NCBI GenBank assembly: GCA_030649895.1
Contig: JAUSEX010000022.1
Location: forward strand, 1 to 54,682
Source of the DNA: Candidatus Omnitrophota bacterium
GTDB lineage: Bacteria; Omnitrophota; Gorgyraeia; Gorgyraeales; Gorgyraeaceae
Reading direction: 5' to 3'
DNA length: 54,682 nt
The translations under genes were made by a program, and so were the position numbers. The notes under the pieces were generated by a model that searched no databases, was not told the origin of the DNA, and saw only the letters and a program-made list of their open reading frames with translations. Shown piece by piece: positions 1-51,922 of this stretch. Numbering within the stretch: position 1 is the first letter of the stretch; each line of letters starts with the position of its first letter.

Positions 1-235
1 TATAACGCTTATGCACTATAGAATCGTATACTTTAAAAACCTTAACAAGCTTTTTTAACCTTAGAAAAGCTTCAAAACTAACCCTTTTAATCTTTCTAAT
101 ACCCTGAGGGGTGGGGGTACGATCTATCTTCCCATTCCCAATTATTATAATATTTCCTTTTGAAATTTTAGCATAACCGTGTATAATATATTTATGCGAA
201 AGATATTCGTCCTTGATACAAACGTGATTATTCAT
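1..235 (-). CDS. possible N-terminal part of an unidentified protein, truncated by the left window edge
   Basis: The minus-strand frame is stop-free for 78 codons, from its only in-frame ATG (complement of 233-235) to base 1 (..AKISKGNIIIIGNGKIDRTPTPQGIRKIKRVSFEAFLRLKK..). This is a roughly 30% GC stretch where stops should be frequent. It is absent from the ORF track because it is truncated. It would overlap the divergent phoH-like start by about 40 nt. No family recognised. Confidence 0.25.
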   Translation of the reverse strand, partial: MNNHVCIKDEYLSHKYIIHGYAKISKGNIIIIGNGKIDRTPTPQGIRKIKRVSFEAFLRLKKLVKVFKVYDSIVHKRY

Positions 236-1572: not shown

Positions 1573-1708
1573 GAATAGCATTACGACAAAGGCAAACCAT
1601 TCGAAAGAATGAGGCGCAAAGTCAACAGGCCTAAAGCCCTAAAGGGCAACGGCGGCTGGATTACCGAAATTAAAAACCTATTCTGCCACAAGGCCGAATA
1701 GGTTTTTT
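1573..1708 (+). promoter_or_regulatory. c-di-GMP-I (GEMM-I) riboswitch: aptamer about 1588-1670 plus terminator expression platform
   Basis: 1591-1668 reads GGCAAACCATTCGAAAGAATGAGGCGCAAAGTCAACAGGCCTAAAGCCCTAAAGGGCAACGGCGGCTGGATTACCGAA. This matches the remembered conserved core of the Vc2 aptamer: GAAA-capped hairpin, CGCAAAG junction, second hairpin, and a ..TTACCGA 3' strand. It lies in the 5' leader of the gene starting at 1725. Confidence 0.8.
1673..1708 (+). terminator. intrinsic terminator forming the riboswitch expression platform
   Basis: AAAACCTATTC (1673-1683) pairs with GAATAGGTTTT (1696-1706). The inner GCC/GGC extension closes on an ACAA loop. A T6 run follows, 17 nt before the ATG. 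Confidence 0.8.
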
Positions 1709-2417: not shown

Positions 2418-4985
2418 ATGCACAAGAAAACCTTATTTTTAGCAATCATAGCTATTGTATTTCTATCGTTAGTATTGGTAAGGCAGGGATTATGTTACAG
2501 AGTTCCTACGGAGCAGAGCAATGTTGAGTATTTTTATGTATTTGGAGCAGACGGCAAAAAAACATATGGGGCAATGAGGAATGAACCTCAAGTAGTATTT
2601 ATAAAAGTTCCGGTAAGTTATAAAGGGAGCGTCCAGATATCTGTTTATGACCCAGAATGCAGCGGTTCGATAGATGAAAAGAGCGACCAGTGGGATACTG
2701 TTACAAAGTTTTCTATTTTAGGAGGAAAAGGAGCATATACTTCTTTGGCTGAAATGGACGAATCTCATATAATTAACAATAAAGAAGATATAAATTTTAT
2801 TGATTATTACGAAGGAGATCTTTTAACCGCAAAGACATTCGGTGAAGATCCGCAGTACAACAAGGCGTTTTACAGCTTTCGTCCCATAGATGCATCAATG
2901 GGTGAAGAATTAGACGGATACAGGTATTTTAAAATAGTCATAGAAGGTCTTGCAGGAGACGATGACAACCTCTTCTCGCTGGATGTTTCTCCTAACGATT
3001 CAGAAGCATTTAGTTTTTCGCCTGCCATAAGGCTTACTGAGGCAAGAGGCGCGAAGATGGCGCTTTATCCTGCAATACCTTCTGATGTGGCAAAAGTTAT
3101 GGAATATAATTACGATTTAGATCCTACAGGCGGGAGCATAGAGCTTATAAGCCCGACTAGATTTTTCAGGATAAACGGCTCCAAGACCGGGATGTGGGCA
3201 AAGACAGAAATTAATGTTCCCAGTGAGGATTCCGGAAGAACATGGGTCTATGAAATAACAAAGGGTAGCCAGAAACAGGGCAATATGGCGTTGACTATGT
3301 TGACAGATAAAGGCAGGTCGATACCTATATATTTTACTCCTGGAAAAGCTGCTCCAAAAATGGTATTCGTAGAAAAACCTAAAGAAACGCCTGCGCCAAC
3401 GGGACAGCCTCTTTCGTGCAACACTTTTACATTTGACGGCTCAAAGTCGTATGATCCGGATAATACCAAACTTACGTATTTCTGGGATTTTGGCGATGGT
3501 ACTACTGGCATAGATATTAGGTCAATTCATACATATAAAGATGCAGGCAAGTATCTTGTTAAATTGACAGTAAAAGACGCTTCAGATGCAAAATGCAACA
3601 CAGCTACGACTCAACAGTTTGTAAAAGTAAACCAGCCTCCATGCGCTATTGCAGATGGCCCCGATATGGCATGTTTGAATGAAGAGATTGCATTTGACGG
3701 TTCTCAGACAACAGACAGTCCAAATGACAAACTTACTTATAGATGGGATTTTGGCGATGGCCAGGTAGCTGATGGAATAAAGATAAAACATAAATATGAA
3801 AAAGGCGGGAATTATCAGGTCATTCTGACGGTAACGGATGATTCCGAAACGATATGCGACACAGGCGCTGATAAATTAAATGTAGTGGTTAATACGCCTC
3901 CTATTGCAGATGCGGAGAAAGACGTATTTTTATGCAAATCAAATCCCAGCGATCCTCTGGAAGTCACGTTTAACGGTTCTGGCTCAAGGGATATGGATGG
4001 AGACAAGCTTTCGTACGCGTGGGATTTTGGAGATGGCCAGACCGCCGACGGCAAAGTCGTAAAACACGATTATGAAAAAGGCGGAGAATACATAGCAAAG
4101 CTTATAGTTACAGACAATACAAGCGCAAAATGTGATAAATCTATAACTACAAAAACTGTTATACTTAACAGGGCTCCCATGGCAAGCGCTGGAAGCGATC
4201 TTAAGATTTGTGCGGGAGACAACGCGGACTTTGACGGATCCAAATCAATTGATAGCGACGGAGATGTTTTAAGTTATTCATGGGATTTCGGAGACGGGGA
4301 AAAAGGAGAAGGCAAGACGGTTTCTCATAAATATGAAAAAGGCGGGCTATACCAGGCAAAACTTTCTGTGGATGACGGCACAAAAACAGATTGTTCCAGC
4401 GCTTATGATACGATTTTAGTAAACGTAAATTCTGCTCCAAATGCAATCATAGCCTCAAAAGACGCCGCTTCAGTAGGCCAGATTGTTAATTTTGACGGTT
4501 CTGACTCAGCTGATCTTGACGGAGATAAACTTGATCATGTATGGGATTTTGGAGATGGGACTAGCGGAAACGGGAATCTAGTAGAACATAGCTATGCAAA
4601 AGGCGGGCTTTATAAGGTTACATTGGTTGTTGATGATAACAGGAGAGCAAATTGTTCGTCATCCGTTGAGACTCATTATTTAAAAGTGAACACGCCTCCT
4701 GTAGCGAATACAGGGCCGAACCAGGTCTGCTGCGTGAATGATGATGTGGAGTTTGACGGGTCTAGATCTATTGACGCGGACGAAGACAAGCTTACTTATA
4801 GGTGGGATTTTGGGGACGGGGAAATGGCCGAAGGCATAAAAGTAAAACACGCTTATAAAAATATAGGAAAATACAAGGTTAGCCTTACGGTTACAGATGA
4901 TTCCGGAGTCGAAGGGAATTCGTCAACGTCCAGTTTTGCCGCAACTGTAAACGCAGAGCCCGTTTCTAAAATAGAAGTAATATAA
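2418..4985 (+). CDS. secreted protein: unassigned ~330-aa N-terminal region plus six tandem PKD domains
   Basis: Signal/anchor helix. Six repeats of about 87 aa, each with FDGS..D.D...L.Y.WDFGDG...G....H.Y..GG.Y.V.L.V.D. Confidence 0.9.
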   Translation: MHKKTLFLAIIAIVFLSLVLVRQGLCYRVPTEQSNVEYFYVFGADGKKTYGAMRNEPQVVFIKVPVSYKGSVQISVYDPECSGSIDEKSDQWDTVTKFSILGGKGAYTSLAEMDESHIINNKEDINFIDYYEGDLLTAKTFGEDPQYNKAFYSFRPIDASMGEELDGYRYFKIVIEGLAGDDDNLFSLDVSPNDSEAFSFSPAIRLTEARGAKMALYPAIPSDVAKVMEYNYDLDPTGGSIELISPTRFFRINGSKTGMWAKTEINVPSEDSGRTWVYEITKGSQKQGNMALTMLTDKGRSIPIYFTPGKAAPKMVFVEKPKETPAPTGQPLSCNTFTFDGSKSYDPDNTKLTYFWDFGDGTTGIDIRSIHTYKDAGKYLVKLTVKDASDAKCNTATTQQFVKVNQPPCAIADGPDMACLNEEIAFDGSQTTDSPNDKLTYRWDFGDGQVADGIKIKHKYEKGGNYQVILTVTDDSETICDTGADKLNVVVNTPPIADAEKDVFLCKSNPSDPLEVTFNGSGSRDMDGDKLSYAWDFGDGQTADGKVVKHDYEKGGEYIAKLIVTDNTSAKCDKSITTKTVILNRAPMASAGSDLKICAGDNADFDGSKSIDSDGDVLSYSWDFGDGEKGEGKTVSHKYEKGGLYQAKLSVDDGTKTDCSSAYDTILVNVNSAPNAIIASKDAASVGQIVNFDGSDSADLDGDKLDHVWDFGDGTSGNGNLVEHSYAKGGLYKVTLVVDDNRRANCSSSVETHYLKVNTPPVANTGPNQVCCVNDDVEFDGSRSIDADEDKLTYRWDFGDGEMAEGIKVKHAYKNIGKYKVSLTVTDDSGVEGNSSTSSFAATVNAEPVSKIEVI
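3405..4962 (+). repeat. six tandem PKD-domain coding repeats (period about 260-277 nt)
   Basis: The TGGGATTT(T/C)GG(N)GA(T/C)GG (WDFGDG) motif recurs near 3484, 3744, 4021, 4281, 4542 and 4803. Confidence 0.85.
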
Positions 4986-12661: not shown

Positions 12662-12668
12662 TTATAGA

Positions 12669-12790
12669 AGTTCTCGACTTGGCCTTTGGCCTCGCTCGAA
12701 CAACATGTCCTGAACTTGTCGAAGGATATTCTTCGAGCGAACGAGCCCCTCGACATTGCTCTGGGTAAACTTCGCGAGTGAGTCGAAAAG
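12669..12790. repeat. nested palindromic intergenic repeat, copy A
   Basis: AGTTCTCGAC ... CTCGCTCGAAC ... ATTCTTCGAGCGAACGAG ... AGTCGAAAAG. Begins 8 nt after the kinase stop codon. Confidence 0.7.
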
Positions 12791-12808
12791 ATAAAGCAGG
12801 AGTAAATT

Positions 12809-18104: not shown

Positions 18105-18274
18105 GGCCGATAAAGGCTTACAGCTTCAGCTTTTCATCGCTTGGCAACCCAGCCGCCATATTATTCCTAACTGCCTCACTAACCCTTTGCATTCGCTGGG
18201 GTTACGGCTTGTCAGAATAACTTAGGCCCGTAGGCTTTGCGCCCCCTGATTTCTCAGGGTTTGCCCTTATCGGC
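18105..18274. repeat. 170-bp element bounded by GGCCGATAAAGG / CCCTTATCGGC inverted repeats
   Basis: Terminal inverted repeats match 10 of 11. It starts 5 nt after the stop codon. It contains the hairpin CCCTGA-TTTC-TCAGGG (18244-18259). The end motif is the same as at 10513-10591. Confidence 0.5.
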
Positions 18275-18331
18275 TATAATAAGTATACCATATAAAAACG
18301 GTTTTTTCAAGACAAGGAGGAGGTAAGTAGA

Positions 18332-31928: not shown

Positions 31929-32999
31929 ATGTTAGAAAAATTAGATTCTTTGTTGAAGCGGTACGATGAGCTGCATGTGTTGATGGCGGACCCTGGCGTA
32001 GCAGGCAATCCTGACAGCTATCAGAAGCTGGCCAAAGAGATGTCGTCGCTTCAGGACATCGTGAAAAAATACAGGGCGTACCGAAAGGTCTTGGTCGAAC
32101 TGGAAGGCGCAAAACATCTTTTAGAAAAAGAATCTCACGAAGAACTGGTGGAAATGGCGAGAGGAGAAATCGCTGAGCTTGAAAAAAGAGAAGGCATACT
32201 TAAGGCTGAATTAGAGGAGATGATACTCGAAGAAGACCCTGACGCAAATAAAGATGTTATCGTGGAGATCAGGGCAGGGACAGGCGGGGCAGAGGCTTCG
32301 CTGTTCGCAGGCGATCTTTTTAGGATGTATTCCAAGTATGCCGCGAAAAATAACTGGAAAGTGGAGATAATGGACAGTCATGTTGCGGAAGCGGGCGGTT
32401 TTAAAGAAGTCATATTTGCGGTTAAAGGCAAGGGCGTTTATAAAAGATTAAAATATGAAAAAGGCGCTCACAGGGTTCAGCGGGTTCCCGCGACAGAGGC
32501 TTCCGGCAGGATTCATACCTCAGCTGTTACTGTGGCAGTTCTGGCTGAAGCAGAGGATGTGGAGGTTCAGATAACCCCGCAAGACATCAGATTGGATGTT
32601 TTCAGGGCGTCAGGCGCAGGAGGGCAGGGAGTCAATAAGATTGAATCAGCTGTGCGCATTACCCATATACCTTCAGGCATGGTAGTTACCTGTCAGGACG
32701 AAAGGTCGCAGAATAAAAATAAAGAAAAGGCTATGAGAGTATTGAGGGCAAGGCTTTTGGAATATATCAGAAAAAAGCATGACGATAAAATAGCAAAAGA
32801 CAGGCGCGCGCAGGTAGGTTCAGGAGACAGGAGCGAGAAAATCAGGACTTATAATTTTCCAGATCGCCGGGTTACGGATCACAGAATAGGCTTTACAATA
32901 CATGACCTGCCTAATGTAATGGAAGGCGATATGGATAAAATCATAGACGCGTTGATACAGGCAGAGAGGAAGATGAGACTAGGGAAACAAGGTTCATGA
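31929..32999 (+). CDS. prfA: peptide chain release factor 1
   Basis: PAT tripeptide (RVPATE) and GGQ motif (SGAGGQGVNK). Confidence 0.95.
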   Translation: MLEKLDSLLKRYDELHVLMADPGVAGNPDSYQKLAKEMSSLQDIVKKYRAYRKVLVELEGAKHLLEKESHEELVEMARGEIAELEKREGILKAELEEMILEEDPDANKDVIVEIRAGTGGAEASLFAGDLFRMYSKYAAKNNWKVEIMDSHVAEAGGFKEVIFAVKGKGVYKRLKYEKGAHRVQRVPATEASGRIHTSAVTVAVLAEAEDVEVQITPQDIRLDVFRASGAGGQGVNKIESAVRITHIPSGMVVTCQDERSQNKNKEKAMRVLRARLLEYIRKKHDDKIAKDRRAQVGSGDRSEKIRTYNFPDRRVTDHRIGFTIHDLPNVMEGDMDKIIDALIQAERKMRLGKQGS

Positions 33000-33919
33000 T
33001 AACAAAAATAGCCGGTTCAAAAAAAGATATTTTTTACTTGATGAATAAACATTCCAAGGCCATTGCCAAAGTGGAAGCGGAAATGCTATTGGAATATTTA
33101 TTTAACTGCACAAAGCTGGATTTATATATCAGAGATTTTGCCGTAGACGAAACAATAGAAGAATTGTATGATTCCCTGGTCAGCCGCAGGCTGAATAAAG
33201 AGCCTGTGCAGTATATGACAGGATGCGCAGAATTCATGGGGCTGGATTTTATAGTAACAAGGGATGTGTTAATTCCGCGTCCGGAGACGGAGATATTGGT
33301 TAATGAGATTATAAATAGTTCTCAATTCGGCTGCTTTCAGCAGCCTCATTCGAACGCTATAAAATATTCTTCGAGCGAGGCAACGAAGTTTCCGAATCGA
33401 GAAGTTAAGATATTGGATCTTTGTACGGGGTCCGGGAATATAGCTGTAAGTTTGGCCAGATTAATGCCGCAGGCTGAAATAGTTGCAACCGATATATCCG
33501 AAGGCGCCCTGAAGATAGCGAAAAAAAATGCAATCCGGAATCAAGCGGGCGACAGGGTAAAATTTTACAAAGGAAATCTTTTTAATGCTTTAGTGTTTGC
33601 GAAAAATCCGAAATTTGATATAATAGTCTGCAACCCGCCTTATATAAAGGAGGGTGATTTTCCTTTTTTGCAGAAGGAGGTCAGGGAAGAGCCTGAAATA
33701 GCCCTGAACGGCGGGAAAGACGGCCTTGATTTTTACAGGATTATAGCGAAAGATTCGCACAGGTTTCTGGAAAAAGGCGGAAAGATTTTATTGGAAATAG
33801 GCTTCGGCCAAAGAAAGGCTGTAGAAGATATATTTTTATCATATAGCATATTTGATGTATATAAGGTGATTAAGGATTTTTCAGGGACTGAAAGGGCGGT
33901 ATGGATAAATTTATTATAG
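32996..33919 (+). CDS. prmC: release-factor glutamine N5-methyltransferase PrmC/HemK, carrying an in-frame repeat insertion
   Basis: RPETE, DLCTGSG and NPPY motifs. ATGA overlap with prfA. Confidence 0.9.
   Translation: MITKIAGSKKDIFYLMNKHSKAIAKVEAEMLLEYLFNCTKLDLYIRDFAVDETIEELYDSLVSRRLNKEPVQYMTGCAEFMGLDFIVTRDVLIPRPETEILVNEIINSSQFGCFQQPHSNAIKYSSSEATKFPNREVKILDLCTGSGNIAVSLARLMPQAEIVATDISEGALKIAKKNAIRNQAGDRVKFYKGNLFNALVFAKNPKFDIIVCNPPYIKEGDFPFLQKEVREEPEIALNGGKDGLDFYRIIAKDSHRFLEKGGKILLEIGFGQRKAVEDIFLSYSIFDVYKVIKDFSGTERAVWINLL
33317..33406. repeat. nested palindromic repeat, copy E, inside the prmC reading frame
   Basis: AGTTCTCAAT ... CCTCATTCGAACGCTAT ... AATATTCTTCGAGCGAGG ... TCGAGAAGT. Same module order as intergenic copy D. 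Confidence 0.7.
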
Positions 33920-35166
33920 AAGGCGGAGTGAGATTAAAAGGCGCCGTGCAGATAAGCGGCGCAAAAAATGCAGCGCTTCCTATACTCGCAGCTACGCTTC
34001 TTACGGATGAAAAATGCGTTATAAAAAATATCCCGCCCTTGCAGGATGTGTACAATATGCTCAGGATACTCAGGAACATGGGTGTCAGGGCTGACATGGA
34101 GGATGAGGTAGTTATTATTCATCCAAATGGATACAGTAATTATGTTGCTCCTTATAAGCTTGTCAGTAAGATGAGGGCGTCTGTGTGCGTGCTGGGGCCT
34201 GTGCTTGGAAAACTAAAACACGCAGAGGTGTCAATGCCCGGAGGCTGCGTAATAGGCCCGAGGCCGATAGATTTGCACATAAAAGGCCTTAATGCGCTTG
34301 GCGCAAATATAAAAGTGGAACATGGATACCTGATCGCAGACGCGAAAAATCTTACGGGCGGCAGGGTTTATCTGGGTGGAAAGTTCGGATCAAGCGTTCT
34401 AGCTACTGCAAATGTTATGATGGCTGCGACCCTCGCAAAGGGGAAAACAGTTATTGAAAATGCGGCGTGCGAGCCAGAGGTTTGCGACTTGGCTGATTTT
34501 CTTGTTAAAATGGGGGCTAAGATAAAAGGTCAAAGGACTCCAATATTAGAGATAGAAGGCGTGAAGTCTCTTCATGGCGCGGAATATTCAATAATAAACG
34601 ACAGGATAGAGGCCGGTACTTTCATGATAGCCGCCGCGATTACTGGCGGAGACGTGTTGATAAAGGGCGCAAACATAGAACATCTCGGGGCTGTTATAGA
34701 TAAGCTAAAAGACGTAGGCGTGAGAATCACAAATACAAAAGACGGGCTCAGGGTTGTTAAGACAGGCTCCGTAAAACCGGTTGACGTTACCACGCTGCCT
34801 TATCCAGGATTTCCTACGGATATGCAGGCGCAGATGACAGCGCTCATGTGCATAACCAAAGGTATCAGCGTAATAACAGAAAAAATATATCCGGAAAGAT
34901 TTATGCATATAAGCGAACTCGCCAGGATGGGCGCGCATATAATACTGGAAGGCTCTAGCGCAATAGTAAAAGGCGTTTCAAGGCTTAGCGCAGCCCCTGT
35001 AATGGCTTCTGATTTAAGGGCAAGCGCGGGGCTGGTGCTGGCTGGGCTTGTAGCGAAAGGCAAGACAGAGATATCAAGGATATACCACCTTGACAGGGGA
35101 TATCATCACATAGAGGAAAAATTAGAAAAGTTAGGCGTAAGGATAAAAAGAGAGAAAGAAGATTAG
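33901..35166 (+). CDS. murA: UDP-N-acetylglucosamine 1-carboxyvinyltransferase
   Basis: ISGAKNAALP and catalytic-Cys loop PGGCVIGPRPIDLH. Confidence 0.95.
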   Translation: MDKFIIEGGVRLKGAVQISGAKNAALPILAATLLTDEKCVIKNIPPLQDVYNMLRILRNMGVRADMEDEVVIIHPNGYSNYVAPYKLVSKMRASVCVLGPVLGKLKHAEVSMPGGCVIGPRPIDLHIKGLNALGANIKVEHGYLIADAKNLTGGRVYLGGKFGSSVLATANVMMAATLAKGKTVIENAACEPEVCDLADFLVKMGAKIKGQRTPILEIEGVKSLHGAEYSIINDRIEAGTFMIAAAITGGDVLIKGANIEHLGAVIDKLKDVGVRITNTKDGLRVVKTGSVKPVDVTTLPYPGFPTDMQAQMTALMCITKGISVITEKIYPERFMHISELARMGAHIILEGSSAIVKGVSRLSAAPVMASDLRASAGLVLAGLVAKGKTEISRIYHLDRGYHHIEEKLEKLGVRIKREKED

Positions 35167-35181
35167 TCGCATAACAAAAAC

Positions 35182-35255
35182 AATATTCTTCGAGCGAACC
35201 TGCGAAGCAGCTGAGCCGAGAAGTTCTCGACCCGCTTTATTCGCTCGAACAATAG
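35182..35255. repeat. nested palindromic repeat, copy B (permuted module order)
   Basis: AATATTCTTCGAGCGAAC ... GAGCCGAGAAGTTCTCGAC ... ATTCGCTCGAACAATAG. Confidence 0.7.
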
Positions 35256-39489: not shown

Positions 39490-39510
39490 ATCGCGCGACT
39501 ACGCGAAAGC

Positions 39511-39622
39511 AGTTCTCGACTAGGCTTATATGTATAGCCGCAGTGTCCGCTCGAACGATATTGCGATAATATTCTTCGAACGATCATTAGAGTATTATTG
39601 TGCGAGCAGAGAGTCGAGAAGC
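39511..39622. repeat. nested palindromic repeat, copy D (most complete)
   Basis: AGTTCTCGAC ... CCGCTCGAACGATATT-GCGAT-AATATTCTTCGAACGATC ... GAGTCGAGAAGC. Confidence 0.75.
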
Positions 39623-39647
39623 AAAAGACAGAAGTTTGTAGAATTAT

Positions 39648-48662: not shown

Positions 48663-50000
48663 ATGGCGCTATCAGGTTTAGATATATACAAATTATTACC
48701 AAAAACTAACTGTAAAAAATGCGGATCTCCTACGTGCCTTGCATTCGCGATGAAGCTCGCGATGAAAAAGGCGTCCCTGGACGAGTGTCCTGATATAACA
48801 GCTGAGGCTAAGAAAGCTTTGGAAGAATCTTCCAGGCCGCCAATTGCCCTGATAAAACTGGGATCGGGGGATAACGTTGTGGAAATCGGGGGAGAGACCG
48901 TTTTGTTCAGGCACGAAAAGACATTCTATCACCAGACAGCTATTGCGATAAGCGCGGATGATACGCTTGACGACTCTGCACTTTTGGCGAGGATAAAAGA
49001 AATAGAGAATATAAGTTTTGAAAGGGTCGGCCAGCATATATCAATCGATATGATAGCCCTTGTAAATAAAAGTTCTACCGCAGAGAAATTTCTGAGCGCC
49101 CTGGATAAAATTCTCCAGAATTCAAAGAAGCCCGTTATCTTGGTGAGCCCTGACCCCAAAACCATAGAAGCTGCTTTGAAAAAATGTTCGGATAGAAAAA
49201 CCCTTGTGCACGCCGCTGATTCTAAAAATTTAAAAGATATGTGCGCCGTGGCCAAAGCTTGCAAAGCCGTCCTTGCTTTGAAAGCTAAAAATTTAGAAGA
49301 ACTTGATAAAATGTCCCAAGAGGCAAATAGCCTGGGCATTGAAGAAATAGCGCTTGATCCTGGTTTTGAAACATTACACGGGTCGCTGAACGACCTGACG
49401 CAGATAAGGCGCCTGAGCCTTAAGCGCAATTACAGGCCTTTCGGTTTTCCTGTAATAATGTTTGTAAAAAATAACGATAAATATCAGACGGTTGTAGATT
49501 CCTGCACGTTTATTGCTAAATATGCGGGCGTAATTGTGCTTGACTCTACCGAAGAGGACGTGCTTCTGCCGATAGTAACTATGCGCCAGAATATCTATAC
49601 AGACCCGCAGAAGCCTGTTACAGTAGAACCAAAACTGTATAAATTCGGATCCCCGGATAAAAATTCTCCTATTATGGTGACCACTAATTTTTCTCTGACG
49701 TTTTACACTGTTGCCCCGGAAATAGAGGCAAGCGGCAATCCTGCGTATCTATTGGTTACTGATTCGGAAGGCATGAGCGTTTTGACCGCGTGGGCTGCAG
49801 AAAAATTTACTCCTGAAATAATAGCCGAGACTATGAAAAAAACAGAACTGGACAGCATTGTCTCTCATAAGAAAATAATAATACCAGGCTATGTGGCTGT
49901 TTTAAGCGGAAAATTGGAAGATGTTTCCGGGTGGCAGGTGCTTGTAGGGCCAAAAGAGGCGTCCGGGATACCGAAATACCTGAAAGAAATCTGGAAATAG
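48663..50000 (+). CDS. acsC: corrinoid iron-sulfur protein, large subunit
   Basis: N-terminus LSGLDIYKLLPKTNCKKCGSPTCLAFAMKLA..ECP matches AcsC. Confidence 0.95.
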   Translation: MALSGLDIYKLLPKTNCKKCGSPTCLAFAMKLAMKKASLDECPDITAEAKKALEESSRPPIALIKLGSGDNVVEIGGETVLFRHEKTFYHQTAIAISADDTLDDSALLARIKEIENISFERVGQHISIDMIALVNKSSTAEKFLSALDKILQNSKKPVILVSPDPKTIEAALKKCSDRKTLVHAADSKNLKDMCAVAKACKAVLALKAKNLEELDKMSQEANSLGIEEIALDPGFETLHGSLNDLTQIRRLSLKRNYRPFGFPVIMFVKNNDKYQTVVDSCTFIAKYAGVIVLDSTEEDVLLPIVTMRQNIYTDPQKPVTVEPKLYKFGSPDKNSPIMVTTNFSLTFYTVAPEIEASGNPAYLLVTDSEGMSVLTAWAAEKFTPEIIAETMKKTELDSIVSHKKIIIPGYVAVLSGKLEDVSGWQVLVGPKEASGIPKYLKEIWK

Positions 50001-50002
50001 AG

Positions 50003-50056
50003 AAAATCCACCTACGGGGTGAGCCAATTAATTGGCTCACCCCGTAGGTGGATTTT
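50003..50056. terminator. perfect 54-bp palindrome (27-bp arms, no spacer), probable bidirectional terminator
   Basis: AAAATCCACCTACGGGGTGAGCCAATT | AATTGGCTCACCCCGTAGGTGGATTTT. Starts 3 nt after the acsC stop. Confidence 0.65.
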
Positions 50057-50061
50057 GGGTT

Positions 50062-50619
50062 ATGAATCTAGCGAATAAAATTTCAGTATTACGCATATTG
50101 TTGATACCGTTTTTTATAGCGTGTATTCTGTATTACGGCGAAGGCAGAGAGTATCTTAGATTCGTTGGCCTTGGCATATTTTTACTGGCTACTATCAGCG
50201 ACGCTGTTGACGGGGGGATAGCGAGGTTGAAACATCAGGTCACGGAATTGGGCATGATATTGGACCCGATAGCGGACAAACTTTTAATAGTAAGCGCTTT
50301 TATATCCTTGTCCATGATAAAGGTTGTCCCTGAAAGCCTGCGTATCCCCGCATGGGCGGTTTTGACAGTCATAAGCAGGGATATAGTGATAGTGCTGGGC
50401 TCCATGATTATATATCTTATTAAAGGCGACTTGAAGATAAGGCCAAGCTGGCTCGGAAAGACTACAACGCTTTTCCAGATGTTAACAATACTTGTTTTCC
50501 TGGCCGCGTTCAGATACCACAGGTTTTTTCTTTATCCGGCAATCCTTTTTACAGTGCTTTCCGCGATAGATTATATCTGGCGCGGCTCAAAGCAACTCAA
50601 TGAAACCCACAAAATATAA
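50062..50619 (+). CDS. pgsA: CDP-diacylglycerol--glycerol-3-phosphate 3-phosphatidyltransferase
   Basis: CDP-alcohol phosphatidyltransferase motif DAVDGGIAR..G..LDPIADK. Start at ATG 50062, because the ORF-track start lies inside the palindrome. Confidence 0.9.
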   Translation: MNLANKISVLRILLIPFFIACILYYGEGREYLRFVGLGIFLLATISDAVDGGIARLKHQVTELGMILDPIADKLLIVSAFISLSMIKVVPESLRIPAWAVLTVISRDIVIVLGSMIIYLIKGDLKIRPSWLGKTTTLFQMLTILVFLAAFRYHRFFLYPAILFTVLSAIDYIWRGSKQLNETHKI

Positions 50620-51922
50620 TTTCCATAAAGTAGTTATTGTCGGAAGGCCTAATGTCGGTAAGTCTACGCTTTTTAACAGGATTCTGCAAAGACGCAAGGC
50701 CATAGTGGAAGAATTCGGACCCACTACCCGCGACAGAATCGGCGCTATTGTTAAATGGTCCGGCAAGACTTTCGAGCTGATAGATACCCCGGGCCTTAAT
50801 TTTGAAAAAAAAGAAAACCTCTCAATGCTTATAGAAAAACAAATAATGCTTGGCATAAAAGAGGCTGATCAGCTTATTTTTGTATGCGACGCTATTTCCG
50901 GGATCTTACAAATGGACTATAAGATATGCGAGATGCTTAGAAAAGCGGATAAAAACGTTATATTAGCCGTAAACAAGGTGGACAGTAGAAATTTAATGCA
51001 AAAGATGTCAAATTTTTATAGCTTGGGTTTTGGCGAACCAATGACCATATCCAGCTTGCATGGGTTAGGAATAGGGGACCTTTTAGATAAAGTCGTGACT
51101 AATATTGTTCGAGTGAGCGCCGACACCAAAAGTGCTGGTGCGAGTCGAGAACCTATAAAACTCGCTATTATCGGTAAACCAAACGTAGGAAAATCTTCTT
51201 TTGTTAACGGCATTCTAGATGAAGAAAGAATTACAGTTAGCGATATCCCTGGCACCACAAGAGACTCGATAGACACGTATTTTGAAAAAGATAAAAAATC
51301 TTTTACTATAATTGATACGGCGGGCATACGTTCGAAGGCTAAAATAAAAGACGCTGTCACGTATTTCAGCATATTGCGCACGGAAGAAACCATTAAAAGA
51401 AGCGACGTGGCAGTAATCCTAATAGACGCGCCGCTAGGCATAACAAAAGAAGAACACAGGATAATAGACATTGTGCAGAAAAATTTTAAACCGTTTATCT
51501 TGGCGATAAATAAATGGGACCTGGCGGAGAAAGAGGGCATAAAAAAAAGCGGGTACGAAAAAGTAATCCGCGAAAATATAAGATTTATGTATAACGCGCC
51601 TATTGTTTTTATGTCTGCGTTAAAAAAGTCAAATCTCGTAGAAGTAGTTGACAAGGCTTACGAACTGGCAGAAAAATCCAGAAAGAATTTTTCAACAAGC
51701 GACCTGAACAGCATTCTTAAGGCTGTGGATTTCAATCCAACAAAGCTTTACTCTATAAGACAAATGAGAAATTCTCCGCCTGATTTTGAGATCATCGTAA
51801 AGAACCCTGAAGACATAAAAAGCACGGAAAAAAGCCACCTGGTAAATATTTTCCGTAAAAAATTACGGTTAGAAGGAATTCCGGTCATTATAAAATTCAG
51901 AAAAAAAGAATTTAAGCTTTAA
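50600..51922 (+). CDS. der: ribosome-biogenesis GTPase Der (EngA)
   Basis: Two GTPase domains (GRPNVGKST, GKPNVGKSS) plus a KH-like C-terminus. Confidence 0.95.
   Translation: MKPTKYNFHKVVIVGRPNVGKSTLFNRILQRRKAIVEEFGPTTRDRIGAIVKWSGKTFELIDTPGLNFEKKENLSMLIEKQIMLGIKEADQLIFVCDAISGILQMDYKICEMLRKADKNVILAVNKVDSRNLMQKMSNFYSLGFGEPMTISSLHGLGIGDLLDKVVTNIVRVSADTKSAGASREPIKLAIIGKPNVGKSSFVNGILDEERITVSDIPGTTRDSIDTYFEKDKKSFTIIDTAGIRSKAKIKDAVTYFSILRTEETIKRSDVAVILIDAPLGITKEEHRIIDIVQKNFKPFILAINKWDLAEKEGIKKSGYEKVIRENIRFMYNAPIVFMSALKKSNLVEVVDKAYELAEKSRKNFSTSDLNSILKAVDFNPTKLYSIRQMRNSPPDFEIIVKNPEDIKSTEKSHLVNIFRKKLRLEGIPVIIKFRKKEFKL
51101..51153. repeat. half copy (F) of the nested palindromic repeat, inside the der inter-domain linker
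   Basis: AATATTGTTCGAGTGAGC ... GAGTCGAGAACC. Translated as NIVRVSADTKSAGASREP. Confidence 0.55.

What the first reader, a model, noticed from the sequence alone, without database searches (positions are those of the whole stretch)
33317..33406. The palindromic repeat is inserted in frame inside prmC
A complete copy of the element (AGTTCTCAAT..CCTCATTCGAACGCTAT..AATATTCTTCGAGCGAGG..TCGAGAAGT) lies within the PrmC reading frame. It is translated as ..SSQFGCFQQPHSNAIKYSSSEATKFPNREVK.. It sits between the RPETE motif and the SAM-binding DLCTGSG motif. Other PrmC proteins that I remember (E. coli, Thermotoga) have only about 15-18 residues there, against 36 here. The extra roughly 30 codons equal the length of the element.

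The insertion introduces no stop or frameshift, and the downstream NPPY catalytic motif is intact. This is the behaviour described for Rickettsia palindromic elements: selfish repeats tolerated as surface loops of essential proteins.
Basis: partly seen in the sequence, partly recalled or inferred. Interest (0 to 1): 0.7.

Follow-up and report, generated by a model that had tools for sequence, protein, structure and literature searches.

The report
Translated palindromic repeat inside PrmC
A 90-base copy of a small palindromic repeat that litters this Omnitrophota genome sits in frame inside the essential-type gene prmC and is read as a floppy 30-residue loop, the same behaviour known from Rickettsia but here in a different phylum and a different repeat family.

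Summary
Window 33317-33406 is exactly codons 108-137 of PrmC. A model built only from 79 copies in other genomes hits it at E=2.9e-13; simulated windows never exceed 12 bits. Most orthologues have 17-24 residues between RPETE and LDLCTGSG, against 41 here.

The repeat is a modular palindrome. Four TCGA-containing cores (AGTTCTCGA, CTCGAAC, TTCTTCGAG, TCGAGAAG) bracket interchangeable hairpin modules, 54-137 nt in total. I found about 150 copies in roughly ten Omnitrophota MAGs. Syntenic relatives have 0-14 nt spacers where the window has copies.

At least 16 copies lie in frame in verified housekeeping genes (MurE, AroA, GatB, MtnA and others), so the Rickettsia-palindromic-element comparison is apt.

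The prmC insert is not a simple recent insertion. It is only +24 residues net. The same junctions occur in scattered PrmC lineages. Closely related filled and empty alleles differ by a diverged ~200-bp patch, which indicates an old allele moved by homologous recombination.

AlphaFold2 models the insert as a low-confidence loop before strand beta-1, and the catalytic motifs are intact.

No target-site duplication or transposase was found, so the mobilisation mechanism is unknown. Intergenic copies show a strong, unexplained orientation bias (44:4). This is a new family of a known kind.

The parts
33317..33406 (+). In-frame copy of the palindromic repeat, codons 108-137 of PrmC (SSQFGCFQQPHSNAIKYSSSEATKFPNREV)
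   Evidence: external-only profile E=2.9e-13; pLDDT below 50 for residues 113-133
33317..33325 (+). Left terminal core AGTTCTCAA (family consensus AGTTCTCGA; the G>A change turns Arg into Gln)
   Evidence: P0003 keeps CGA/Arg
33326..33348 (+). Hairpin module v1 (GGCTGC-TTTCA-GCAGCC), a variant of a module seen in other copies (L059 ctcggctgcttcgcagcctcg)
33349..33375 (+). Central cores TTCGAAC (consensus CTCGAAC) and TTCTTCGAG with an 11-nt spacer; encodes ..SNAIKYSSS
33376..33396 (+). Module v2 (variable slot)
33397..33404 (+). Right terminal core TCGAGAAG (encodes ..REV)
32996..33919 (+). prmC (release-factor glutamine N5-methyltransferase), 307 aa, host gene; lies between prfA (31929..32999) and murA (33901..35166)
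12663..12792 (+). Intergenic family copy (full), 7 nt after the upstream stop and 18 nt before the next ATG
   Evidence: E=1.2e-14
35179..35254 (+). Intergenic copy between murA and rpsP with the two halves in reversed (R-L) order; the spacer is 110 nt here against 11-14 nt in L002 and L120
36254..36360 (+). Intergenic copy between trmD and rplS; the empty site in L002 reads AAAATTAAAGGGGG
   Evidence: E=3e-10
39507..39623 (+). Intergenic copy between fhs and the FTCD_C gene; relatives have 0-14 nt there
   Evidence: E=3.3e-21
51101..51159 (-). Half element (reverse orientation) inside the Der/EngA inter-domain linker, read as NIVRVSADTKSAGASREP; old and partly decayed, about +5 aa over the shortest orthologues
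   Evidence: E=6.7e-7

Best explanation
The segment is a copy of a dispersed, non-autonomous, modular palindromic DNA repeat of Candidatus Omnitrophota that has become part of the prmC coding sequence.

Anatomy. Four short cores each contain TCGA: AGTTCTCGA, CTCGAAC, TTCTTCGAG and TCGAGAAG. They pair as an outer and an inner stem. Between them are slots holding interchangeable hairpin modules.

Consequence. The cores contain no stop codon in any of the six frames. A copy whose length keeps the frame can therefore survive inside a gene if it lands in a permissive surface loop. In prmC it occupies the connector between the helix that starts at RPETE and strand beta-1 of the methyltransferase fold. 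That connector enters the sheet on the edge opposite the SAM and substrate site. The insert is most likely translated as a disordered 30-residue loop that leaves catalysis intact.

History. The allele is old. The same junctions are found in several PrmC lineages, and the element plus about 40-100 bp of coding flank on each side moves between related genomes as a patch by homologous recombination. The interior is remodelled by gain and loss of whole modules.

Shown: family membership; absence from most orthologues; loop position; intact motifs; many other in-frame copies; the recombination patch; a module-sized indel.

Inferred: that the insert is translated and neutral; that the family spreads as selfish DNA; the enzyme that moves it, which is unknown.
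For: Family membership:
- The external-only profile hits the prmC segment at E=2.9e-13; the best simulated-window score is 12.2 bits.
- Cores and module slots are aligned across 124 full elements. About 154 places were found in 857 kb from roughly ten Omnitrophota MAGs.

Insertion status:
- 97 of 105 orthologues lack the SSR..REV signature, and typical loops are 17-24 residues against 41 here.
- Syntenic relatives L002-L004 and L120 have compact spacers, and L002-L004 give no profile hits.
- A clean filled/empty pair at fhs-ftcd (L001 vs L120, about 95% identical) shows about 80 nt inserted between an overlapping stop and start codon.

Tolerance in genes:
- The structure model has mean pLDDT 89.8 and pTM 0.85. 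Only residues 1-6 and 113-133 are below 50, and the insert lies between helix 96-107 and strand 138-141.
- The fold matches HemK/PrmC, including the RF1 complex 2b3t. NPPY and the GxGxG motif are invariant.
- The insert is present in three independent assemblies at 100, 98 and 88% protein identity.
- 16 strict in-frame copies were found, and MurE, AroA, MtnA/IF-2B, GatB, radical SAM, ComEC, DUF4416 and a heptosyltransferase were confirmed as hosts.
- The minimal element is open in all six frames, and 43% of elements have at least 4 open frames against 10% of length-matched controls.

Recombination and remodelling:
- P0004 (filled) and P0017 (empty) are 98.9% identical outside a patch of about 210 columns. 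Inside it the coding flanks are 58% and 75% identical.
- The same divergence spike appears on long contigs, L001 vs L120.
- Filled alleles are polyphyletic in the PrmC tree.
- P0004 differs from L001 by loss of exactly one 30-nt module.
Against: - No target-site duplication was detected in 111 oriented copies.
- No multi-copy transposase-like ORF was found in 857 kb, so mobility is inferred from distribution only.
- Translation of the insert was not observed.
- Cores are well conserved between the window and L001 prmC copies even though the proteins are only about 72% identical. This needs gene conversion or selection and is not what simple neutral decay predicts.
- Intergenic copies show a 44:4 orientation bias relative to transcription. 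That hints at some constraint or function beyond pure selfishness.
- Six-frame openness is not very improbable for a palindrome of this length: 8% of artificial palindromes show it.
- The PrmC tree is a rough neighbour-joining tree, and all data are metagenome assemblies.
Confidence: 0.78

Rival explanations
1. The repeat family is primarily a functional cis-acting element of transcripts or of single-stranded DNA in operon spacers, for example an mRNA-stabilising or processing hairpin or a protein-binding site. The prmC copy would then be an incidental or secondarily retained by-product. This is partly compatible with the main explanation.
For: - Intergenic copies between co-directional genes point the same way as transcription in 44 of 48 cases (p=1.5e-9), while coding copies split 10:6 (Fisher p=0.012).
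- The palindrome carries conserved strand asymmetries: terminal G..G and central C..C mismatches.
- Copies fill the space between a stop codon and the next ribosome-binding site.
- Folding z-scores are -2 to -3.7.
Against: - No Rfam family matches.
- Sense RNA is not more stable than antisense (mean +0.7 kcal/mol) and G-U pair counts are equal.
- Closely related genomes do without the copies at the same junctions.
- Modules and lengths vary freely.
- Gene strand and replication direction are confounded, so a strand-specific insertion mechanism could produce the same bias.
Confidence: 0.15
2. The insert has been domesticated: the extra loop gives PrmC a new function, such as a partner-binding surface, and is kept by selection on the peptide.
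For: - The allele persists in several lineages with the same junctions, and the core-encoded peptides SSR, HSN, YSSS and REV are conserved.
- The insert is retained at 88% overall protein identity (P0003).
Against: - Interior residues and length differ completely between lineages: 30, 34, 44, 42 and 32 codons.
- Filled and empty alleles alternate between genomes that are 95-99% identical.
- The loop is predicted to be disordered.
- The conserved residues are exactly those encoded by the DNA cores shared with intergenic copies, so the conservation is explained at the DNA level.
- The insert differs slightly more than the rest of the protein between P0001 and P0003: 6/30 against about 31/277 residues.
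Confidence: 0.07
3. The segment is not translated: it is removed from the mRNA or bypassed by the ribosome, so the frame is irrelevant.
For: The element folds into a stable hairpin (-30.4 kcal/mol, z=-3.65). No expression data exist.
Against: - All verified genic copies keep the host frame open in several different frames and orientations. That would be unnecessary if they were removed.
- Module indels in prmC are multiples of three (30 nt between P0004 and L001).
- There is no ribozyme or intron match in Rfam.
- Caveat: my screen for genic copies required an open frame, so frame-breaking copies would have been counted as intergenic.
Confidence: 0.04
4. The resemblance is coincidental, or an assembly artefact, and the segment is just a lineage-specific loop expansion.
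For: Within the window alone, single-sequence searches gave only E of about 1e-3. The loop is naturally variable in length.
Against: - The external-only profile gives E=2.9e-13, with simulated controls at 12 bits or less.
- All four cores occur in the right order and spacing.
- The same insert is present in independent assemblies P0002 and P0003.
- The L001 prmC insert is detected at E=7e-11 by a profile trained on window copies only.
Confidence: 0.01

Closest known systems
Rickettsia palindromic elements (RPE; Ogata et al. 2000 Science 290:347; Ogata et al. 2002; summarised in PMC10969869)
   Same: Both are short palindromic repeats found in intergenic DNA and also in frame inside unrelated housekeeping genes. 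Both are translated as extra peptide segments judged compatible with the fold. In both, the host has a small, compact genome and no associated transposase is known.
   Different: The phylum differs (Omnitrophota, not Alphaproteobacteria). The cores are TCGA-based; my judgement that they are unrelated to RPE sequences was not tested here. The elements are shorter (54-137 nt against roughly 100-150). They are a mosaic of four cores with exchangeable hairpin modules that also occur alone. Intergenic copies have a strong orientation bias. The prmC allele spreads or is removed as a recombination patch.
REP / REPIN / BIME elements of Proteobacteria
   Same: Both involve two inverted half-units separated by a short spacer (like a REPIN doublet), a mosaic combination of conserved motifs (like BIMEs), no target-site duplication, a location between co-transcribed genes, and conserved mismatches that make the two strands distinguishable.
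   Different: REPs are extragenic by definition and are tied to a RAYT (Y1 HUH) transposase gene flanked by REPs. No such gene was seen here, although only 857 kb was sampled. About one copy in seven here is inside a coding sequence. The 5' GTAG-type motif of REPs is absent.
Bacterial MITEs with intragenic in-frame copies (ERIC, Delihas 2007; Coxiella QMITE, PMC5896051; Correia/NEMIS; Nezha)
   Same: Both are small non-autonomous repeats with inverted termini that can be co-transcribed and occasionally create in-frame fusions or insertions.
   Different: Classical MITEs have target-site duplications and a parent IS with matching terminal inverted repeats. Here the duplication was tested and not found, and no parent IS was found. 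The fraction of in-frame genic copies is much higher than usual for MITEs and is comparable only to RPEs.

Membership tests
Rickettsia palindromic elements (as a behavioural class: 'protein-coding palindromes') | Multi-copy palindromic repeat present in both non-coding and coding DNA | tested here: met
   About 154 places were found. 16 strict genic copies and 95 others were counted among 113 oriented copies.
Rickettsia palindromic elements (as a behavioural class: 'protein-coding palindromes') | Genic copies keep the host reading frame and sit in otherwise intact conserved genes | tested here: met
   prmC. MurE, AroA, GatB, MtnA, radical SAM, ComEC, DUF4416 and GT9 were confirmed by Pfam with full-length domain matches.
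Rickettsia palindromic elements (as a behavioural class: 'protein-coding palindromes') | Insert lies at a surface position compatible with the fold | tested here: met
   The AlphaFold2 model has high confidence except residues 113-133. The insert lies between helix 96-107 and strand 138-141. The fold matches PrmC structures. Solvent exposure itself is inferred, because no coordinates were available.
Rickettsia palindromic elements (as a homologous family RPE-1..10) | Sequence homology to RPE consensus sequences; occurrence in Rickettsia | not tested
   No RPE sequences were available in the tools. The host is Omnitrophota. Homology is not expected but was not formally excluded.
MITE (classical) | Terminal inverted repeats | tested here: met
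   AGTTCTCGA and TCGAGAAG(T) match at 8 of 9 positions and are conserved across 124 elements.
MITE (classical) | Target-site duplication flanking the element | tested here: not met
   Direct-repeat matches of 2 to 5 nt between left and right flanks of 111 copies are within the permutation range. The clean filled/empty pair L001/L120 shows none.
MITE (classical) | Parent insertion sequence with the same termini encoding a transposase | tested here: inconclusive
   No multi-copy transposase-like ORF was found among 882 ORFs of at least 150 aa in 857 kb. Whole genomes were not searched.
REP/REPIN | Association with a RAYT (Y1 transposase) gene flanked by the repeats | tested here: inconclusive
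   None was seen in the sampled loci. No dedicated RAYT profile search was possible across the genomes.
REP/REPIN | Strictly extragenic location | tested here: not met
   At least 16 copies lie inside verified coding sequences.
REP/REPIN | Inverted doublet of two short imperfect palindromes separated by a short spacer | tested here: met
   The L half (GTTCTCGA-module-CTCGAAC) and R half (TTCTTCGAG-module-TCGAGAAG) are separated by AATA. Halves also occur alone or in reversed order (window 35179-35254 and 51101-51159).
Known structured RNA families (Rfam 15) | Match to a curated covariance model at gathering score | tested here: not met
   The only matches in the window are two c-di-GMP-I riboswitches; nothing matches at any repeat copy.
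PrmC/HemK (host protein) | PrmC_N domain plus class I methyltransferase domain with GxGxG and NPPY motifs; gene next to prfA | tested here: met
   Pfam PF17827 and PF05175. Motifs are invariant. The start codon overlaps the end of prfA by 4 nt. The structure matches 2b3t_A with TM-score 0.89.

The most novel reading that the evidence does not exclude
Omnitrophota carry a previously undescribed class of 'frame-neutral' modular palindromes. It consists of a TCGA-core scaffold plus autonomous mini-hairpin modules that are recognised strand-specifically as folded single strands. These elements have colonised both the 10-nt operon spacers and the surface loops of a sizeable part of the proteome of these ultra-small bacteria. 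Insert-bearing gene segments then travel between species as recombination cassettes. Under this reading the elements are a systematic source of new protein loops and of inter-species mosaicism, and the 44:4 orientation bias reflects a real function or a strand-specific (HUH-type or novel) mobilisation mechanism.
Probability: 0.25. Interest if true: 0.75.

Novelty: new member of a known kind. Interest (0 to 1): 0.55.

Why it matters
In-frame 'protein-coding palindromes' have been treated as a peculiarity of Rickettsia. Finding the same behaviour in a different repeat family, in an unrelated phylum of ultra-small and probably host-dependent bacteria with equally compact genomes, suggests a general rule. 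Where intergenic space is almost absent, selfish repeats persist only if they are harmless when translated, and they then become raw material for new protein loops.

Practical consequences:
- These inserts inflate protein lengths, create spurious 'low-complexity' loops, and break alignments. phmmer split PrmC in two at the insert.
- They mark recombination tracts between uncultivated lineages.
- The modular anatomy, the solo modules and the orientation bias give concrete handles for finding the unknown mobilising enzyme.

Tried and rejected
- Single-sequence blastn and nhmmer within the window gave only marginal E-values of about 1e-3. This was resolved by building profiles from many copies.
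- Target-site duplication: TAA/TTAA looked plausible at the trmD-rplS and prmC junctions, but it was not supported across 111 copies or in a clean filled/empty pair.
- Known RNA family or ribozyme: no Rfam match.
- RNA-level selection through G-U pairs: the sense strand is not more stable than the antisense.
- Restriction-site avoidance: TCGA is 16-fold enriched in elements, but its background frequency (3.0 per kb) is close to the compositional expectation, so the idea was dropped.
- Integron attC-like sites: the cores do not fit RYYYAAC/GTTRRRY, and the flanking genes are housekeeping operons. This was rejected by inspection.
- Autonomous partner: all-against-all clustering of 882 ORFs found only orthologous housekeeping genes.
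- Independent site-specific insertions as the reason for identical junctions: disfavoured, because the coding flanks co-vary with the insert as a diverged patch.
- Assembly chimera as the cause of the patch: disfavoured, because the pattern recurs on 16-kb and 51-kb contigs from different projects.
- Der/EngA as a second clean insertion: rejected. Orthologues have the same length, so it is an old, partly decayed half element.
- Six-frame openness as proof of selection: weakened, because 8% of artificial palindromes show it.
- Taxonomic spread beyond Omnitrophota (Stahlbacteria, and MAGs labelled 'Gammaproteobacteria' or Patescibacteria): unresolved. Only L062 could be shown to be Omnitrophota-like.

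Full report
**1. What is at the coordinates**

It lies inside ORF 32996..33919 (+, 307 aa). Because (33317-32996)/3 = 107, the segment is exactly codons 108-137 and is translated SSQFGCFQQPHSNAIKYSSSEATKFPNREV.

The ORF is PrmC/HemK:
- It has Pfam PrmC_N and MTS domains.
- It overlaps the end of prfA and is followed by murA.
- Its closest database relatives are release-factor glutamine methyltransferases of Candidatus Omnitrophota.

**2. Is it a copy of a repeat, beyond chance?**

Within the window I found related copies at about 12668, 35180, 36263 and 39509. They share four short blocks: AGTTCTCGA, CTCGAAC, (AATA)TTCTTCGAG and TCGAGAAG. Single-sequence searches inside the window were only marginal (E about 1e-3), so I enlarged the sample.

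Most stretches came from about ten Omnitrophota MAGs. A profile search then found about 154 places in 857 kb, and a regular-expression dissection gave 124 full elements.

The decisive test used a profile built only from 79 elements of other genomes. It hits the prmC segment at E=2.9e-13 (43.1 bits), and the other window copies at E=3e-21 to 4e-8. The best score in 100 simulated windows (5.5 Mb) is 12.2 bits.

**3. Anatomy of the family**

Every element has the following layout:

`(T)A-GTTCTCGA-[module]-CTCGAAC-AATA(+/- spacer module)-TTCTTCGAG-[module]-TCGAGAAG`

- Each core contains TCGA. TCGA density is 47 per kb in elements against 3 per kb outside.
- The modules are a limited set of recurrent hairpins, for example ctcgcttcgctcg, ctcggccttcggcctcg, a 30-nt pair, and cccgagcgaagtcgaggg.
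- Total length runs from 54 to about 137 nt.
- Halves can occur alone or in reversed order (window 35179-35254 and 51101-51159).
- Predicted folds are stable, with z-scores of -2 to -3.7.
- The palindrome is consistently imperfect, with a terminal G..G and a central C..C, so the two strands can be told apart.
- The minimal element has no stop codon in any of six frames. 43% of elements have at least four open frames, against 10% of length-matched random segments. However, 8% of artificial palindromes of that length are also six-frame open, so this is suggestive only.
- No Rfam family matches.

**4. Is it an insertion relative to orthologues?**

Among 105 aligned orthologues, the distance from E of RPETE to D of LDLCTGSG is usually 17-24 residues, against 41 in the window. 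Only 8 proteins carry the core-encoded signature SSR..REV. Against T. maritima HemK, phmmer breaks the alignment at the insert, with 35 residues opposite 13.

Relatives with a 283-aa PrmC (L002-L004) are fully syntenic. They give no profile hit, and their spacers are 10-14 nt where the window has 110-158 nt filled by elements. L120, which also has an empty prmC site, is equally compact.

A clean filled/empty pair at about 95% identity (L001 vs L120, fhs-ftcd) shows about 80 nt inserted exactly between an overlapping stop and start codon. A stop codon is recreated and there is no duplication.

One correction to the finding: the insert replaces most of the native 8-12-residue loop, so the net gain is about 24 residues.

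**5. Effect on the protein**

AlphaFold2, run with the 105-sequence alignment, gives mean pLDDT 89.8 and pTM 0.85. The only low-confidence stretches are residues 1-6 and 113-133. The insert lies between helix 96-107 and strand 138-141.

The model matches solved HemK/PrmC structures, including the E. coli PrmC-RF1 complex (TM-score 0.89). The GxGxG and NPPY motifs are invariant.

In Rossmann-type methyltransferases, ligands bind at the C-terminal edge of the sheet. A loop entering beta-1 is therefore on the far edge. This step is an inference from established fold knowledge, not a measurement.

The same insert is present in two further independent assemblies at 98% and 88% protein identity.

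**6. Generality**

Of the well-defined copies, 16 lie in long open frames after removing one chance hit and one spurious ORF. Pfam confirmed the hosts as intact conserved proteins:
- MurE, at the same site in two genomes
- AroA, with two copies in one gene
- MtnA/IF-2B
- GatB
- a radical-SAM enzyme
- ComEC
- DUF4416, at the same site in two genomes
- a heptosyltransferase

The encoded peptides recur: SSRL..LEQYSSSE..SRE in one orientation and STR..RSKNIVRA..ESRT in the other.

This is the behaviour described for Rickettsia palindromic elements (review PMC10969869). I found no paper describing it in Omnitrophota.

**7. History of the prmC allele**

Full inserts at exactly the same junctions occur in at least five PrmC lineages, each with an empty-site nearest neighbour in a rough neighbour-joining tree. 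Their interiors differ completely: 90 nt here against 132 nt in L001.

P0004 (filled) and P0017 (empty) are 98.9% identical outside a patch of about 210 columns. Inside the patch the coding flanks are only 58% and 75% identical. P0004's patch is about 97% identical to L001's, and P0017's equals that of P0021. The same divergence spike is seen between the long contigs L001 and L120, which makes an assembly chimera unlikely.

By contrast, a second, different insert at another PrmC site has clean edges.

I conclude that the site-1 insert is an old allele that is passed on, or replaced, by homologous recombination. Its interior changes by whole-module indels; P0004 lacks exactly one 30-nt module present in L001.

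The same loop also hosts a solo module. In L121, the residues TCPERSRG are encoded by TGTCCCGAGCGTAGTCGAGGGA.

**8. Mechanism of spread**

The mechanism is unknown.
- No target-site duplication was found.
- No transposase-like multi-copy ORF was found in the sample.
- Intergenic copies between co-directional genes are co-oriented with transcription 44:4 (p=1.5e-9), whereas genic copies split 10:6 (Fisher p=0.012).
- The bias is not explained by RNA-specific pairing.

The bias could reflect selection at the transcript level or a strand-specific single-strand mechanism. Gene and replication direction are confounded in these data. The counts also rest on ORF proxies for genes, and they may include orthologous copies in different genomes.

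**9. Verdict**

This is a new repeat family in a new phylum that shows a known kind of behaviour. It has three unusual features: a modular core-plus-module architecture, a strong orientation bias, and spread or removal as a recombination patch. All three deserve follow-up.

Noticed in passing
window 51101-51159 (- orientation), inside ORF 50600..51922 (Der/EngA): A half element in the linker between the two GTPase domains is read as NIVRVSADTKSAGASREP. Orthologues have the same overall length (435-443 aa). A few have longer element-like linkers (P0134, P0157), and the shortest lack it. It looks like an old, partly decayed copy rather than a net insertion.
   Followed up: yes
PrmC orthologues P0007, P0016, P0033, P0036, P0042, P0048, P0049, P0051, P0052, P0076, P0096; DNA at L001 9511-9579: A second in-frame insertion site lies between NLFNAL(V/I) and KNPKFDIIVCNPPY. 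It holds a different ~23-25-residue insert (FDTFGGKS..LSINTGI.KQE.VVKN). In L001 vs L120 it is a clean 69-nt indel with a possible TA duplication. Its hairpin CCCGCCACAGAAACAATGGCGGG recurs inside family-1 elements. The window's PrmC lacks this insert.
   Followed up: partly
L121 10334-10355 (prmC) and L001 5617-5634 (coaE): Solo copies of the hairpin module cccgagcg(a/t)agtcgaggg are inserted in frame (TCPERSRG in PrmC; ..SESSRAKSRGS.. in a C-terminally extended CoaE). The modules therefore exist independently of the four-core scaffold.
   Followed up: partly
window 1581-1668 (+) and 18140-18275 (-): Two c-di-GMP-I riboswitch aptamers (Rfam RF01051, 77.9 and 64.7 bits).
   Followed up: no
window 50003-50056: A perfect 27+27-nt palindrome (AAAATCCACCTACGGGGTGAGCCAATT / AATTGGCTCACCCCGTAGGTGGATTTT) lies between ORFs 48663..50000 and 50032..50619. 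It is unrelated in sequence to the TCGA-core family. It may be a terminator or another repeat.
   Followed up: no
window 3462-4897, inside ORF 2418..4985: Five to six tandem ~261/276-nt coding repeats share the motif ..L(T/S)Y.WDFGDG.., which looks like repeated PKD-type domains in a large secreted protein.
   Followed up: no
L001 7270-7441, 11265-11436, 12481-12652; L001 7660-7727, 11684-11765; L121 12133-12337: Other intergenic repeat families occur in related genomes: a 172-nt family with internal hairpins, and a TAGCG-rich palindrome. They occupy the same operon spacers (rho-rpmE, murA-rpsP, trmD-rplS) that hold TCGA-core elements in the window.
   Followed up: no
L044 1214-2656 (AroA of MAG PEUD01), also L115 ComEC: A further repeat-like peptide, (L/R)PLTLPSP(L/H)RGEGKGEG, occurs twice in frame in AroA, besides two TCGA-core copies. 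This suggests several repeat families invade coding sequence in these genomes.
   Followed up: no
PrmC orthologues P0030, P0031, P0042, P0049 (C-terminus): These share a C-terminal extension ..LQLVPGTICKVSALIP that replaces the usual ..WINLL end. It may be another repeat-derived or recombined segment.
   Followed up: no
loci L006, L009, L013, L020, L033, L036, L042, L053, L070, L073, L085, L088, L093, L108: Good matches to the family occur in MAGs labelled Stahlbacteria, 'uncultured Gammaproteobacteria' (binchicken bins, 40-47% GC) and Patescibacteria. It is unresolved whether this reflects mislabelled or misbinned Omnitrophota contigs or a wider distribution. One such copy is in frame in GatB (L036).
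   Followed up: partly
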